Positions 30,601 to 39,600 of a DNA stretch of 64,000 nucleotides are shown here, one piece after another. The position numbers are program-made. The stretch's first letter is position 1, and every line of letters starts with the position of its first letter. The DNA is taken from NCBI RefSeq assembly GCF_963506605.1, contig NC_083291.1, positions 24,428,001-24,492,000 on the forward strand, given 5' to 3'. This DNA comes from Zootoca vivipara. Its lineage: Eukaryota.

Positions 30601-33600
30601 TTTGACTACTTGTGTACCAGGTTTTCTCTTGTGGAATAATGGCAACAATTTTGATGTCCCTTTGACTTGAGTGAGTTGGTGGGGCAAAGAAGTATTTGTG
30701 TATTTGTACATTTTCAATGCACTCTCAATCTTCTATTGTTGAAGGGGTGGGCTCTCTTTTGGCAGGGAGGTGTTTCTGTCAACTGCAAGGGCTCTACTGC
30801 TGTGGAGGCTTCGGCTTTGCCCAGGCAGGTGGAAGGCTACTGCTGGCAATAGGAAGTGTGGGAGACCAGGGCATTTTGGGGCAGGCAACCAGAGGCGTAC
30901 CTAGGCTCCTTTGCATCCTTGGTAAGCAGCTGTATTGACACCTCTGAAGCCGGGAGAGACCATGGACAAGAAACTGAAAAAAAGGTTGTTTTTTGTCTTT
31001 TGCACTACACCAGCGACTTCCTCCGTGGAAGGAACTTCCTCCACCTCCCTCTCCTCCTCCATTGGTCCATCTGCCTGCCTGCCTGCCTTCATGTGGCGGC
31101 CCATGCCAGCAGCCAGATTCCTCTGTTGAGGTGCCCGGAAGAGCCTGTGTTCCTTGCCTGGCCACTCAGAGAAGTAGAGGAGTGGCCCCAGAACACACAG
31201 ATGGGTGGAGTCCTAGCCACTCCGAGCCAGAGTAGAGAGGTACAATTTATCACCAAACTTAAAACTACGGAGAAACCTGGTCTAAATAAAGACATTGGAT
31301 TCTTATCTCATTATACATGATAAAGCTATCTTTAACCATCTCACCCCTTGCTTTTCCTGTGGGACCAATCGTAAACAGTCGTAAATTCTTCCTGTAAGAC
31401 CAAATGCAGCCATAAACAGTCCGGCCCCTCCCCACCCTCTCACTATATGTGGGGATCTGGTGACTTCCGTTTCAGTGTATCTGAAGAAGTGTGCATGCAC
31501 ACAAAAGCTCATACCAATGACAAACTTAGTTGGTCTCTAAGGTGCTACTGGAAGGAATTTTTTTTATTCTGTTGTCTTAGTTAAAGAAACAATATATATG
31601 ATTCTTGGTTTGTTTTTTAGAGCAATCTGTTGAGCAAATCTGTTATTTTGTAATGTTTGAGTGCTCAGTCTTTTGACCCTATGCTATATCTATATACATT
31701 TTCATTCTATTAAAATCAAGGGAAACATCCAAGCCTTTAAGTCAAATTGGGCAACTTGCTTTAAAAAAATCTATCCCCTTTCAACTCTCCCCATTGTGTG
31801 TTGGTGGTGGTGTTTGCACTTCACTGCTTTTGATCTGTCGTCAGTGTTGTATCCTCATGAGTTTTGTATTGGTGCCTCTTTCGGAGGGGGCAGCCACAGC
31901 CACCACTACTTATTTGCATAAAATAATGTCACTGTGAAAATTGCTGATTAAAAAATTGCTGATTAATTAGCCTTGAGGTTGAGCTTTAAAAATGCAGCTG
32001 GGAAGCGAATATAGCAGCCAAAGTACTTTGAAAAATAGACAGGCATACTATTGTCAGCCAAAGTGATTGGCTGATCCTAGCTCAGTGGAGGAAAGTATTG
32101 CAAGAAGAGAAATGGAAAAGTGTCTTTCTCTTCTCTTCAGTCTGACCCCCCTCTTTTTATAAGACCCTGCATGAAAGTGGCCTCCCTAACTCTTCCCCAC
32201 TGGCTCACATGGGACCAGCGCAGATAGTTGGGCCTAGTGAGCACTTAGTGCTCCCAACCCATATAGTTGTGACTTGTGGGTTGCCATCTGTTTTTATTCT
32301 GATCTTAATCTGATTTTAAGCTGTATTTTAATCAATTGTTTGACTTGTTTGGTGTATTGTACCGGTATATTTTGATGTTCGCTGCCCTGAGCCCGGTCCT
32401 GGCCGGGGAGGGTGGGGTATAAGTAATTATTATTATTATTATTACTCTCCTGTGATTTTACTAGTACCCTCATTTTTGGAGTCAAATGTGACTGTTTTGA
32501 ATTATTTTCAATTGGCCATTTATATGTATATTTAATTTAATAGCACAATGGTAATGGCTCCCAGTTGGTTTGACAGCACTTATATCTTACACCAGGTCTT
32601 GGGCACCACTCAAGCTGAAGTCCAGGTTGCCACCCCTCTGGTCAGTACCAGGACCACTGTTCTAGGGCACAGTCACTTAAGATACATAGAACTTCACTTA
32701 AGATACATAGAACTTTTATCTCTTAGTCAGTGTTGGAACACACATGTAGCCAGTCCATGTGCAGCTAGTTAAAGGCTCCCATTACTACAACATTTCCTCT
32801 TTTGGATGCTTCATTGATTTCAGCTTTCATCTCAAGATCTCTGAGCATTTTGATACCATGTTCACATTAATAATTTTTTGGGACCTGGTATCACTGCCCA
32901 CAACAATTTTATGGAGGAATATTCCCCTTTTAGAATTTCTGGCTTACTGGCCTTAGTGTCCTTTCTGACATACAGAGCAACATCACCTCCAGTGAGTCCT
33001 TGCTGTAGAGTTCTCTCCATTCTACCAGATTTCTGTTATGCCCATTATATCAATGCTGTCCTGCAAAACTAAATACTCCCATTTATGGCTCTGTTGGTTC
33101 TTGGGTTCACAGAAGAAAGCCAGTCTAGGACCATGTAACACCCCCCATACCCTATTTATAATAGGTTAGAACTCATAAAAGCATCAACAATAGGATCTAA
33201 TTTAAAGAGTAAAATACTTTTAAATGTGACTTGGATTCCCCCCCCCCAAAATCTATGGTTCTTAGATTGGTTATTGTTTTGTAGAATGAACCTTAAAGCT
33301 TGTTGGAATCGATATTGGCCATATTACCCTAGTGTCTTTCTGATGCACCTACCCAACAAGGGAAAGTGTCTCTTTCAAAATAATTTTTTGAAAGGAATAT
33401 AAATAGCTTTGGGAATCTTTGCCTGTCAAAATGTTGTGCTAGGCTTAGCAACAGTTGCTAATCTAGGTCCACCCAATGAGAAAATAAATTCTGAAATTGG
33501 CCTGCCAGCCACATCTAGATAGTAATTACTATAAAAGCAGATGGGTTTCTTTGCCTTCCCATTAAGACAGTTTGCCCTATGTTTACCGTGTTTCTCATAT

Positions 33601-36600: not shown

Positions 36601-39600
36601 TATAATATGAGAAACACGGTATTTAATCAGTTGCCTAATCAGATTGGTAGGATGTTCTGGTGTTTTGAAGGGACAATGGGCGTGAGGCAGGTTTTGGGGG
36701 GCTAAACAGAGCTGGGGGTTTGCTCTCTTGAATTCTGGATTTATCACTCTAAGCAGCTCTCATTGTCGCACTGTCAAGGTCTCTCTTTCTCTCTCCCCCT
36801 CCCCCTCCTTTCATATTTATTGTAAAGACTGATAATTACCCGTGTTATTAACCTTTTTTAAAAATCGGTTTTTGAGACTTAAGGCAGGGTTTAGTGCTTC
36901 CTCCGCTTAGATTTCAACCCTCGCCTCGTAAGGCAAAACGTTCATGTACTCTGGTTCTATGTTTCCCGTCAGCCGCCTCCTGCCTGCTCAGAAAACAGGC
37001 CACGAAGGAAGCAACCCTCGTTGTTCGTCTTCCAGCAGCTGTTAACTCAAAGCTACTGTATACTGCTGTCGACGTGGAGGCTCCATCTGGAAGAAGGGGA
37101 ACTACTGTACTTGCAGCCCAAGCAGAAGGTGGGCCTAGCAGGGAACGGGTGGGAGGAAGCGGCAGCTACAAATTGAAACTAAAAAGCGGCCTCGGCTCCG
37201 CCTCCCTTAAAGGAAAGAGCCGATACAGGAAGGGCTGTTCTGTAACCACGTGCGCAGGCGCCACAAAAAAAGCCAAAAACAACAAACCGTTTCTTTTTTA
37301 ACATACAGCGCGTGCGTGTCGGTGCTGCCTGCGTCATCGCGTTGACGTAAAGCAGACCTACCCTGTGTGGTGGTCTCCGCGTAACTGAGCTAAAACAAAG
37401 GAAGACGCGGGCGGGCGGAGGGGAGGGGGAGAAAAAAAAGGAGGCGGAGCCCGAGGGCTCGCGGGCGGGCTGGGGAGCTTGGCAACCGCGATTGGTAAGC
37501 CGGGAAGTCAATTCAGGTTACGTCACTATCCCTGCTGGCCGAATGGTAGGTGGAGGGGGTCCAAAGAGAGGGGGCGGGGCTGTAGCATCATGGAGAGCGG
37601 CGGAGGTGGCGGCGGCGGCGGGCTTGGCGGATGCTGGCGGCAGCCGTGGGAGGGGACGGCTCCGGGAGTGGTGGCGGCGGCGCCGCGGCCGGGCGCTCGT
37701 TGAGCGGCGCGGCGCGGTCGGGTCCTCCCTGCTTGTGATGGGCGGATGGAGTCGCGCTGATTATCCCGGAAGCCATTGCAGGGGGAGGAGGAGGAGGTGG
37801 TGCTGGTGTGGAGAGCCCGGGCCTGCTGCTGCTGCTGCTGCCAGCGGTGGCCGCCGTCCCCAGACCGGAGGAGTTTCCTGCTGCCTCCGCTCAGGTACCT
37901 GTGCCTGTGTGGGGAGAGCGAGAAATCTGGGATCGGTTTATCTCTCTCCCCTCCCGCTCCCAGTTCGGCTCCATTCCATCAGGCTCTGCCATTCCTGGCT
38001 TACAGATAACGGGTTTTCTCTCAAAAAACCCGGGGAGGGATGATACACTCTTTTCGGAAACCAACCCGGCCGGGGGGAGCTGTCTGCAAGACGCTGCTAA
38101 CCTCTGAGGGGTTTTCCCGCCCCATGGACGGATGGGCGGTTGACACGTCTCCAGTTTGTCCCGATAGGTAAATTAGCAAAAGGAAGGAACAGCAAAAAAA
38201 CAAAAAAAAACTATGAATAAAGGGCAGCAGGACCCACTGAAAGCAGTGGCCCCAAATGGCTGTCGGGAGGGGTGTGTGCTTGCTTTGATTCCCCACCAAC
38301 ACTTTCCCGAGTGGAAAACGAGTCTTGTCCCTTGTGTCTCCTACCCAACTATAAACAACCCTCTATTGTGCATTGTTATGTGTTTGCAGAGGGCATGTTG
38401 ATTTTTTAATGAAAAACCCTATTTGCCTTTATTTTAATTTATATATTATTTAAAATGCAAATGAGCACAGTGTTTTATAGGGTAATTTAATCAGCACACC
38501 TCCTTCCTTGCCCTATGGAGCAGGGGAGGAGGAGACAAGGAAAACTGCACAGTTGTGCTCACCTTTTTAGTTGTAGGTGACTTCTGAGGGAGAAGTGAAT
38601 GGGTTCTAAGTGCTTAGAAGTTAACCCAGCCATCTTTCTTTTTTTGGAACAGATTTCCTATAAATTGACCAAATACAGATAATCGTCTTACTAAAAGTGT
38701 TTGTACAAAGGAGCATGGCAAACTAAGCCACAGTGGCCACATATGGGGTAGTGTAGTAAATCATTAGAATCAGTTACATGTGTGTTACAGCTGTGTTGGC
38801 CTGGTGTAGTCGAAACAAAATTTTAAAAAATCCTTCCAGTAGCACCTTAAAGACCAACTAAATTTGTCATTGGTATGAGCTTTCGTGTGCATGCACGCTT
38901 CTTCACACGAAAGCTCATACCAATGACAAACTTACCGTAGTTGGTCTCTAAGGTGCTACTGCAAAGAATTTTTTATTTTGATTAGAATCAGTATTTGCTA
39001 GTGCTGAATGATACTTATATAGTTTTGAAACATTTTTCCTAGTATTGTGTCACAAGAGATTTTGTTAGTGCTGTAAGGATATCCTTTTAGAGAAATGAGT
39101 TTATTCTAATTACTGTTATAGCCCCCATTCTTTACTCCACCTCCCTAAAGTTGTTGCTGCTATTTTCAAGTGCTTTGAGAATAAACACGTAAAGAATTAA
39201 GTGTGGCGAGATGGTTTTTTTAGTAGCAGTTTTAGTCCAGGTACAAAAAGCATTTATATGTTGTTCTTCTGAAATAGGTGGAGTGGACAGAGAAAACATT
39301 GGAAGGGAGAGGAAAAAGTATTCAGTGAAGAATGAAAAGAAAGGTTGGTGTGACAGCAGTGTAAGGAATTGTATGACAGTGTCTACATGGATTATTGAAA
39401 AGCTATACAATTTCTTTAATTGTATACTTAGCAGTTTTCCTGAAGACACATTGCATACTTGTGTAAAATTAGTCCACTTTGTTTCCATAGTTGTGCATGA
39501 TTAGTGTAGATCAGTGTTTCTCAACCAGTGTGCCTCCAGATGTTTTGGGACTACAACTCCCATCATCCCTAGCTAGCAAGACCAGTGGTCAGGAATGATG

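What the first reader, a model, noticed from the sequence alone, without database searches (positions are those of the whole stretch)
33586..36619. A satellite being born inside a MITE: 235 bp versus 3034 bp
The window has two members of one family with the same ends and subterminal motifs. The one at 49478-49712 has about 45 bp of interior. This one has an unrelated GC-rich interior amplified to about 19-20 tandem units. The TIRs and TA flanks are intact, so the whole array is potentially mobile. Inference: a MITE acting as a vector and nursery for minisatellites.
Basis: partly seen in the sequence, partly recalled or inferred. Interest (0 to 1): 0.7.

Follow-up and report, generated by a model that had tools for sequence, protein, structure and literature searches.

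The report
Minisatellite array inside a lizard MITE
A small non-coding transposon in what looks like a lacertid lizard genome carries about nineteen tandem copies of a GC-rich, hairpin-forming 143-base unit in its centre, a real example of a kind of element already described in frogs, clams and insects.

Summary
33586-36619 (3034 bp) and 49478-49712 (235 bp, opposite orientation) share 25-nt terminal inverted repeats, TA on both flanks and three 27-nt subterminal repeats. They differ only in the centre: 46 nt in the short copy against 2845 nt in the long one. The long centre holds about 91 unique GC-rich bases plus 19.4 copies of a 143-bp unit. Each unit is two near-perfect palindromes. Perfect internal duplicates of 419, 260 and 254 nt and a hybrid monomer show recent multi-monomer duplication within the array as assembled.

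"Born inside" and "vector" are not shown. The unit occurs nowhere else in the 64 kb, the sibling copy lacks it, and no eukaryotic genome collection was open for a census. Tandem-repeat-bearing MITEs are already known: miDNA4 and Xstir in Xenopus, and DTC84 in Donax.

The window looks lacertid, not human. The element sits about 200 bp upstream of a CpG-island-like region.

Verdict: a new member of a known kind, of modest interest.

The parts
33584..33585 (.). TA flank, left of the long copy (putative target-site duplication)
33586..33610 (+). Left terminal inverted repeat of the long copy (25 nt)
33603..33629 (+). Subterminal 27-nt repeat R1
33657..33683 (+). Subterminal 27-nt repeat R2. With its tail to 33689 it forms a 38-nt direct repeat with 36529-36566
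33690..33780 (.). Unique GC-rich segment between R2 and the array. The wider stretch 33688-33780 measures GC 74% and CpG observed/expected 0.94. It has no match to the monomer, to the short copy or elsewhere in the window
33781..36515 (.). Tandem array: 19 full monomers (135-145 nt) plus a 54-nt partial one. GC 68%, 249 CpG. Each monomer is two long palindromes
34210..35468 (.). Higher-order part of the array (monomers 4-12). A four-monomer block is repeated, with a hybrid monomer at 35190-35325. Perfect duplicates of 419, 260 and 254 nt lie here
36516..36527 (.). 12 unique bases between the truncated last monomer and the right arm
36534..36560 (+). Subterminal 27-nt repeat R3
36595..36619 (-). 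Right terminal inverted repeat of the long copy
36620..36621 (.). TA flank, right of the long copy
49478..49712 (-). Short sibling copy (235 bp) in opposite orientation. It has 25-nt inverted repeats, three 27-nt subterminal repeats, a 46-nt GC-rich centre without the 143-bp unit, and TA at 49476-49477 and 49713-49714
36800..38200 (.). Neighbouring CpG-island-like region (context, not part of the element). 200-nt windows reach GC 0.76 and CpG observed/expected 1.16. No protein domain found

Best explanation
The 3034-bp feature is one copy of a non-autonomous DNA transposon bounded by terminal inverted repeats and flanked by TA. It is a MITE of Tc1/mariner type, in what is most likely a lacertid lizard genome.

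The family has a fixed frame: inverted repeat, two subterminal repeats, a variable centre, one subterminal repeat, inverted repeat. In this copy the variable centre holds about 91 unique GC-rich bases and a minisatellite of 19.4 units of 143 bp. Each unit consists of two near-perfect palindromes of about 61 and 69 nt.

Shown: the assembled array contains perfect duplicates of blocks of three to four monomers, and one monomer that is a hybrid of two others.

Inferred:
- The array grew at this locus by unequal exchange or replication slippage. Hairpin or cruciform formation by the palindromes, and the 38-nt direct repeat that brackets the centre, probably made this easier.
- The array is neutral or selfish DNA with no demonstrated function.

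Where the first unit came from is not shown.
For: - Family membership and frame: shared inverted repeats, TA flanks, colinear arms and three subterminal repeats in both copies.
- Array: TRF period 143, 19.4 copies, 93% matches.
- Monomer differences: 0 to 20 per pair among the 19 full monomers. Monomers 5, 9 and 12 are identical, 6 and 10 are identical, and 4 and 8 differ at one position. Monomer 11 combines the left part of type 7 with the right part of types 4 and 8.
- Exact internal duplicates: 419 nt at offset 557, 260 nt at offset 414 and 254 nt at offset 971.
- Arm divergence: the arms of the two family copies differ by 8.7% and 16.5%. The two copies are therefore far more diverged from each other than these duplicated blocks are.
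- Palindromes: DNA fold -75.5 kcal/mol against -29.5 +/- 3.1 for 200 shuffles, z -14.8, with 0 shuffles as good. All 19 full monomers keep both hairpins, at -60.0 to -80.8 kcal/mol.
- No sign of a coding or known RNA role. The 428-codon open frame through the array has 0 relatives. No Rfam family reaches its gathering score in the element. 0 of 24 variable stem pairs changed in a compensatory way.
- A palindrome in each core repeat was proposed as a hotspot for array-length change in the Donax MITE DTC84 (abstract).
Against: - Only two family copies and one array could be examined.
- Perfect duplicates inside an array are also what gene conversion or a mis-assembly would give, and no reads were available.
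- Nothing dates the insertion of this copy. An element that arrived with a long array and kept homogenising it would look the same.
- The high CpG content (observed/expected 0.78), next to a CpG-island-like region, leaves room for a role in chromatin or transcription that sequence alone cannot exclude.
- The absence of protein hits is weak evidence about distribution, because gene predictors mask repeats.
Confidence: 0.6

Rival explanations
1. Carrier subfamily. A subfamily of this MITE already carried one or more 143-bp units when it transposed, as described for miDNA4 in Xenopus. Copies spread the unit, and arrays then expand or contract at each site.
For: Both ends and both TA flanks of the array-bearing copy are intact. 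The array sits exactly in the family's variable centre, between subterminal repeats. There is precedent: miDNA4 carries one repeat motif in 61% of copies and several in others (passage in PMC12054243; reviews).
Against: In the window, 1 of 2 copies has the unit and the other has an unrelated 46-nt centre. No monomer lies outside the array in 64 kb. There was no genome-wide data. This rival does not exclude local growth.
Confidence: 0.35
2. Capture. The unit is an independent genomic satellite. A piece of it was copied into, or inserted in, the centre of one MITE copy, for example as filler during repair, and was then kept or expanded.
For: The centre is unrelated to the rest of the element in composition and sequence. 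The array ends in a truncated monomer followed by 12 unique bases. Scalvenzi and Pollet are reported to propose capture of a pre-existing tandem repeat by the ancestral MITE (review passage).
Against: No copy of the unit lies elsewhere in the window. The two typed words, a 15-nt end word and an 18-nt monomer word, occur in no held paper. No target duplication or ends of a second element are visible at the junctions of the centre (by eye). The published lacertid satellites named could not be compared, because no sequences were available.
Confidence: 0.2
3. Assembly artefact. The array is real, but its length and its perfect internal duplicates are produced by the assembler.
For: There are perfect repeats of 419, 260 and 254 nt inside a 2.7-kb array. 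No read data were available.
Against: Monomer variants are ordered and non-periodic over most of the array. There are 29 variable columns and five monomers with the 8-nt deletion placed irregularly. This is not what a simple collapse or stutter gives.
Confidence: 0.1
4. Functional array. The roughly 39 GC-rich hairpins next to a CpG-island-like region act as a regulatory block or as a source of hairpin-derived small RNAs.
For: The array meets the compositional criteria of a CpG island, with GC 68% and observed/expected 0.78. It ends about 200 bp from a native CpG-rich region. Hairpin 2 has the geometry of a microRNA precursor.
Against: The Rfam matches listed (150 of 578) are all far below gathering score. 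The best is 45.5 bits against 83. They fall on both strands and on many unrelated microRNA families, which indicates a generic hairpin. There are no compensatory changes, 0 of 24 variable pairs. No expression or methylation data were available.
Confidence: 0.07

Closest known systems
miDNA4, a Tc1/mariner MITE of Xenopus tropicalis carrying a satellite motif (Scalvenzi and Pollet 2014; the original is not held; known here from passages in PMC12628747, PMC9659126 and PMC12054243)
   Same: A TA-type MITE frame of inverted repeat, tandem repeats and inverted repeat. The repeat sits in the centre and is bracketed by short direct repeats. The copy number of the internal repeat varies. The published model is 'MITE drives a satellite'.
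   Different: miDNA4 is reported as 300-600 bp and AT-rich (63% AT), with most copies holding one motif. Here the array is 2.7 kb and 68% GC, the unit is a double palindrome, and the only sibling copy seen has no unit at all. No sequence comparison was possible.
DTC84, a tandem-repeat-containing MITE of the clam Donax trunculus (PMC3879986, abstract seen)
   Same: Flanking 'cassette' with inverted repeats around a central array. There is an ordered arrangement of repeat variants. A palindrome in each repeat is proposed as the hotspot for length change.
   Different: DTC84 has up to five core repeats, an attached microsatellite and a putative AA target duplication (pearl-type). Here there are 19.4 units and TA flanks.
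Xstir/Xmix of Xenopus (Hikosaka and Kawahara 2004; review passages only)
   Same: A MITE, a tandem array and composite MITE-plus-array forms coexist. Stem-loop formation is invoked for array growth.
   Different: Xstir repeats are reported to derive from the MITE's own internal sequence. Here the unit is unrelated to the arms.
Helitron/Helentron-type elements with central tandem repeats (DINE-TR1, pearl/CvA) and foldback elements such as Tetris (review passages; search listing)
   Same: A mobile element with a tandem array that can seed satellites.
   Different: This element has short 25-nt inverted repeats and TA flanks, not Helitron ends. Its array is central and direct, not part of long repeat-built inverted ends as in foldback elements.

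Membership tests
MITE (structural class) | Terminal inverted repeats at both ends | tested here: met
   25 nt. 23 of 25 complementary in the long copy and 92% in the short copy.
MITE (structural class) | Flanking target-site duplication | tested here: met
   TA lies on both sides of 2 of 2 copies. Caveat: the next two bases also match (TT/TT and AT/AT), so TA could belong to the inverted repeat and the duplication could be the next 2 nt. Two copies cannot decide.
MITE (structural class) | Small and non-coding | tested here: inconclusive
   The short copy is 235 bp. The long copy is 3034 bp only because of the array. The longest open frame through the array, 428 codons on the + strand, has 0 relatives. 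The array frames themselves were not scanned against Pfam.
MITE (structural class) | Many dispersed copies in the genome | not testable with these tools
   Two copies in 64 kb. No eukaryotic genome collection was open.
Tc1/mariner superfamily derivative | TA target-site duplication | tested here: met
   with the caveat given above.
Tc1/mariner superfamily derivative | Ends shared with an autonomous element that encodes a DD(E/D) transposase | not testable with these tools
   No transposase domain was found in the 160 open frames scanned against Pfam. No repeat library (Dfam or Repbase) was available.
Tandem-repeat-bearing MITEs (miDNA4 / DTC84 / Xstir type) | Central tandem array between arms that bear the inverted repeats | tested here: met
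Tandem-repeat-bearing MITEs (miDNA4 / DTC84 / Xstir type) | Family members differ in the number of the same internal unit, single-unit copies included | tested here: not met
   Within the window, the only other copy has no unit. The genome-wide state is unknown.
Tandem-repeat-bearing MITEs (miDNA4 / DTC84 / Xstir type) | The same unit also occurs as arrays without inverted repeats | not testable with these tools
   None in 64 kb. The genome was not available.
Helitron-type carriers of tandem repeats | No inverted repeats, 5' TC and 3' CTRR ends with a hairpin, insertion between A and T | tested here: not met
   The ends are inverted repeats with TA flanks. The junctions of the centre show no such ends (by eye).
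Foldback elements | Long inverted ends built of tandem repeats | tested here: not met
   The inverted repeats are 25 nt, and the array is direct and central.
MicroRNA precursor families (Rfam) | Score at or above the family's gathering threshold | tested here: not met
   0 matches in the element at gathering score. There are 578 weaker matches at E up to 1, of which 150 are listed. The best is 45.5 bits against a threshold of 83.

The most novel reading that the evidence does not exclude
In lacertid lizards this MITE family is a recent carrier that plants a CpG-rich, doubly palindromic minisatellite beside gene promoters. There the arrays would grow quickly and act as extensions of the CpG island, or as clusters of hairpin RNA precursors that affect the neighbouring gene. 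This would be a vertebrate case in which a transposon delivers ready-made regulatory or small-RNA arrays.
Probability: 0.08. Interest if true: 0.6.

Novelty: new member of a known kind. Interest (0 to 1): 0.3.

Why it matters
If a census confirmed it, this would be a squamate example of a transposon-borne minisatellite. It would come with an unusually clear record of how the array grows: a higher-order block, a hybrid monomer and perfect duplicates. Its unit consists of two palindromes, which bears on the idea that hairpin-forming units favour array expansion.

My three lizard- and lacertid-directed literature searches turned up no such case. The general principle, that MITEs carry and seed satellites, is already established, so the gain would be another data point rather than a new concept.

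Tried and rejected
- Looked for further family members and for the unit elsewhere in the window. I used blastn with word size 7 and a 15-mer scan with up to 3 mismatches. Only the two copies were found. A 24-nt hit at 7781-7804 is chance.
- Tested the short copy's centre against the long copy's unique segment and the monomer, on both strands. No similarity beyond shuffles.
- Used open frames through the array as a proxy to find the unit in other genomes. There were 0 hits among 7999 scored candidates of 235-749 aa. There were 0 hits at E up to 0.001 among 1.84 billion representatives. This is a weak negative.
- Rfam gave nothing in the element at gathering score. In permissive mode it gave only generic hairpin matches.
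- Looked for a host gene or transposase. I scanned 10 open frames, then 150 of the 153 stop-to-stop frames of at least 72 codons outside the array and the retroelement. The three dropped were 36895-37173(+), 49301-49648(+) and 49464-49700(+). Apart from the retroelement's own domains, only three sub-threshold hits appeared (FAM27, PSII_BNR, Hydrophobin_2), which I rejected.
- Searched paper texts for the 15-nt end word and an 18-nt monomer word. 0 papers each.
- The original miDNA4 paper is not held.
- A Zootoca paper on a Tc1/mariner-like fragment (PMC10058329, passages) gives no sequence to compare.
- The prokaryote-only collection genome contigs was not scanned, because it cannot answer a question about a lizard repeat.
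- The third word-indexed protein search, the structure tools and the Atlas were not used.
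Full report
**The window.** It is 64,000 bases with no N. GC is 42.7% and CpG observed/expected is 0.38, as in a methylated vertebrate genome. The only long coding frames belong to a Ty3/Gypsy-like retroelement. The best relatives of its pol frame are named proteins of lacertid lizards: Zootoca vivipara at 94% identity over 99% of the query, Podarcis muralis at 90%, and Lacerta agilis at 69%. I therefore take the window for a lacertid lizard, not for human. This is an inference from a mobile element, not from a host gene.

**Check of the observation.** The finding's coordinates are exact.
- The 15-nt terminal word occurs only at 33586, 36619(-), 49478 and 49712(-) with 0 or 1 mismatch.
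- The inverted ends are 25 nt long: 23 of 25 complementary in the long copy and 92% in the short one.
- TA lies outside all four ends.
- The short copy is in the opposite orientation. Its reverse complement is colinear with the long copy over 97 nt (83.5%) and 92 nt (91.3%).
- Both copies have a 27-nt subterminal repeat three times in one orientation, twice on one side of the centre and once on the other. In the long copy, the second and third of these extend to a 38-nt direct repeat (33652-33689 and 36529-36566) that brackets the centre.
- The two copies differ only in that centre: 46 nt (GC 61%) against 2845 nt. The two centres are unrelated.

No third copy and no isolated arm is present in the window. 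A 24-nt hit near 7790 is chance.

**The array.** TRF reports 33781-36515, period 143, 19.4 copies, 93% matches and 2% indels. Splitting at a conserved word gives 19 full monomers and a 54-nt partial one. Five of the 19 lack the same 8 nt and are 135-136 nt long. Of 145 alignment columns, 29 vary: 12 with indels, 6 CpG transitions, 3 other transitions and 8 transversions. About 91 unique GC-rich bases precede the array, and 12 unique bases follow its truncated last unit.

Each monomer folds as single-stranded DNA into two long hairpins of about 61 and 69 nt. The energy is -75.5 kcal/mol against -29.5 +/- 3.1 for shuffles, z -14.8. As RNA, both strands give z near -14. All 19 full monomers keep both hairpins, at -60.0 to -80.8 kcal/mol. 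Of 61 stem pairs, 24 vary among monomers and none shows a compensatory change. The palindromes are therefore inherited and slowly eroding. They do not appear to be maintained by selection on pairing.

**How the array grew.** Monomers 4-7 recur as 8-11. Monomers 5, 9 and 12 are identical, 6 and 10 are identical, and 4 and 8 differ once. Monomer 11 has the left part of type 7 and the right part of types 4 and 8, which is the pattern expected of an in-register unequal exchange. Exact internal duplicates reach 419 nt (offset 557), 260 nt (offset 414) and 254 nt (offset 971). By contrast, the arms of the two family copies differ by 8.7% and 16.5%. The array as assembled has therefore been duplicated in blocks of three to four units very recently, compared with the divergence between the two family copies. 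I infer unequal exchange or slippage. I also infer, but cannot show, that the palindromes and the bracketing direct repeat favour it. The same argument was made for the palindrome in each core repeat of the Donax MITE DTC84 (abstract).

**What it is not.**
- No Rfam family reaches its gathering score in the element.
- In permissive mode, 578 matches appear. The 150 listed are all microRNA-precursor models on both strands, and the best scores 45.5 bits against a threshold of 83. This is what any long GC-rich hairpin gives.
- The 428-codon open frame through the array has no relatives: 0 hits among 7999 scored candidates of 235-749 aa, and 0 at E up to 0.001 among 1.84 billion representatives. 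This also served as a crude test for the unit in other genomes. The negative result is weak, because repeats are usually masked before gene prediction.
- No transposase or host protein domain was found in 160 open frames.

**Surroundings.** Upstream DNA (31500-33585) is AT-rich and CpG-depleted, with observed/expected 0.11. The array has GC 68%, observed/expected 0.78 and 249 CpG. About 200 bp beyond the right end begins a native CpG-island-like region, roughly 36800-38200. There, 200-nt windows reach GC 0.76 and observed/expected 1.16. By eye it carries promoter-like GC boxes and a possible splice donor, but I could assign no gene. So the element sits at the edge of a probable promoter. Whether the array keeps its CpGs because it is young or because it is unmethylated cannot be told from sequence.

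**Interpretation.** The structural reading is right. This is a TIR-bounded, TA-flanked member of a MITE family whose centre has become a minisatellite.

'Being born inside' and 'vector and nursery' go beyond the evidence. In the window, one of two copies has the unit and no unit lies outside the array. The first unit may have arisen there, may have been captured from a pre-existing repeat, or may have been carried in by a subfamily. Array length could not be checked against reads.

One detail cuts slightly against a plain TA duplication. The two bases beyond TA also match on both sides of both copies (TT/TT and AT/AT). Two copies are too few to decide.

**Comparison with what is known.** MITEs with internal tandem repeats that expand and may seed satellites are established.
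- miDNA4 is a Tc1/mariner MITE of Xenopus tropicalis. It is reported as 300-600 bp and 63% AT, with one repeat motif in 61% of copies and several in others (passages). The original paper is not held.
- Xstir/Xmix in Xenopus (passages).
- DTC84 in Donax (abstract).
- Further cases are cited or tabulated in the reviews: termites in the reference list of PMC12628747, and lepidopterans, Messor ants and rye in PMC9659126.

The present element works like these. As for membership in that kind, the central array between inverted-repeat arms is met. Variable numbers of the same unit among family members is not met in the window, and is untested genome-wide.

This case differs in four ways: the length of the array (2.7 kb), its high GC and CpG content, the double-palindrome unit, and the host group. 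Three literature searches aimed at lizards and lacertids found no MITE-borne minisatellite. The classical lacertid satellites named in a review (pLCS, pGPS, CLsat, Agi160, HindIII, TaqI; passages) could not be compared, for lack of sequences. Supplements of these papers were not opened. I could not name the MITE family, because no repeat library was available.

**Verdict.** This is a new member of a known kind. Interest is modest (0.3). The clear record of block duplication and the palindromic unit make it a good specimen, but not a new principle.

**Virus-like stretch (description only).** An LTR retroelement lies at 22266-26538. Its two 300-nt long terminal repeats are identical. It has a gag-like frame at 22746-23495. 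It also has a 960-codon pol frame at 23347-26229 with reverse transcriptase, RNase H and integrase domains. The two frames overlap in different reading frames. I did not examine whether that is a programmed shift or a break.

Noticed in passing
window 22266-26538: Ty3/Gypsy-like LTR retroelement. Its two 300-nt LTRs are identical. It has a gag-like frame at 22746-23495 and a 960-codon pol frame at 23347-26229 with RT, RNase H and integrase domains. Pfam reported no protease domain at E up to 0.01. The best relatives are in lacertid lizards. The identical LTRs suggest a very recent insertion. Described only.
   Followed up: partly
window 36800-38200: CpG-island-like region starting about 200 bp from the element's right end. 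GC reaches 0.76 and CpG observed/expected 1.16. By eye it has promoter-like GC boxes and a possible splice donor. No protein domain was found and no gene could be assigned.
   Followed up: partly
window 33582-33585 / 36620-36623 and 49474-49477 / 49713-49716: Beyond the TA flanks, the next two bases also match on both sides of both copies (TT/TT and AT/AT). TA could therefore be part of the inverted repeat, with a different 2-nt duplication. Two copies cannot decide.
   Followed up: no
window 4854-4918 (-): The only Rfam match at gathering score in the window is tRNA-like, 32.2 bits against a threshold of 29. It may be a tRNA-derived SINE head or a degenerate tRNA gene. ARAGORN was not run.
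   Followed up: no
window 53418-53770: Composite tandem repeat with periods 16, 90 and 148, 85-88% matches. It is unrelated to the finding.
   Followed up: no
window 54539-55438 (+): A 300-codon stop-free frame that is internally duplicated and low in complexity (serine- and leucine-rich), with no Pfam match. It is probably a repeat, not a gene.
   Followed up: partly
window 8001-8500: A second short CpG-rich spot, GC 0.60 and observed/expected 0.82. It contains an 11-nt tandem repeat at 8481-8528.
   Followed up: no
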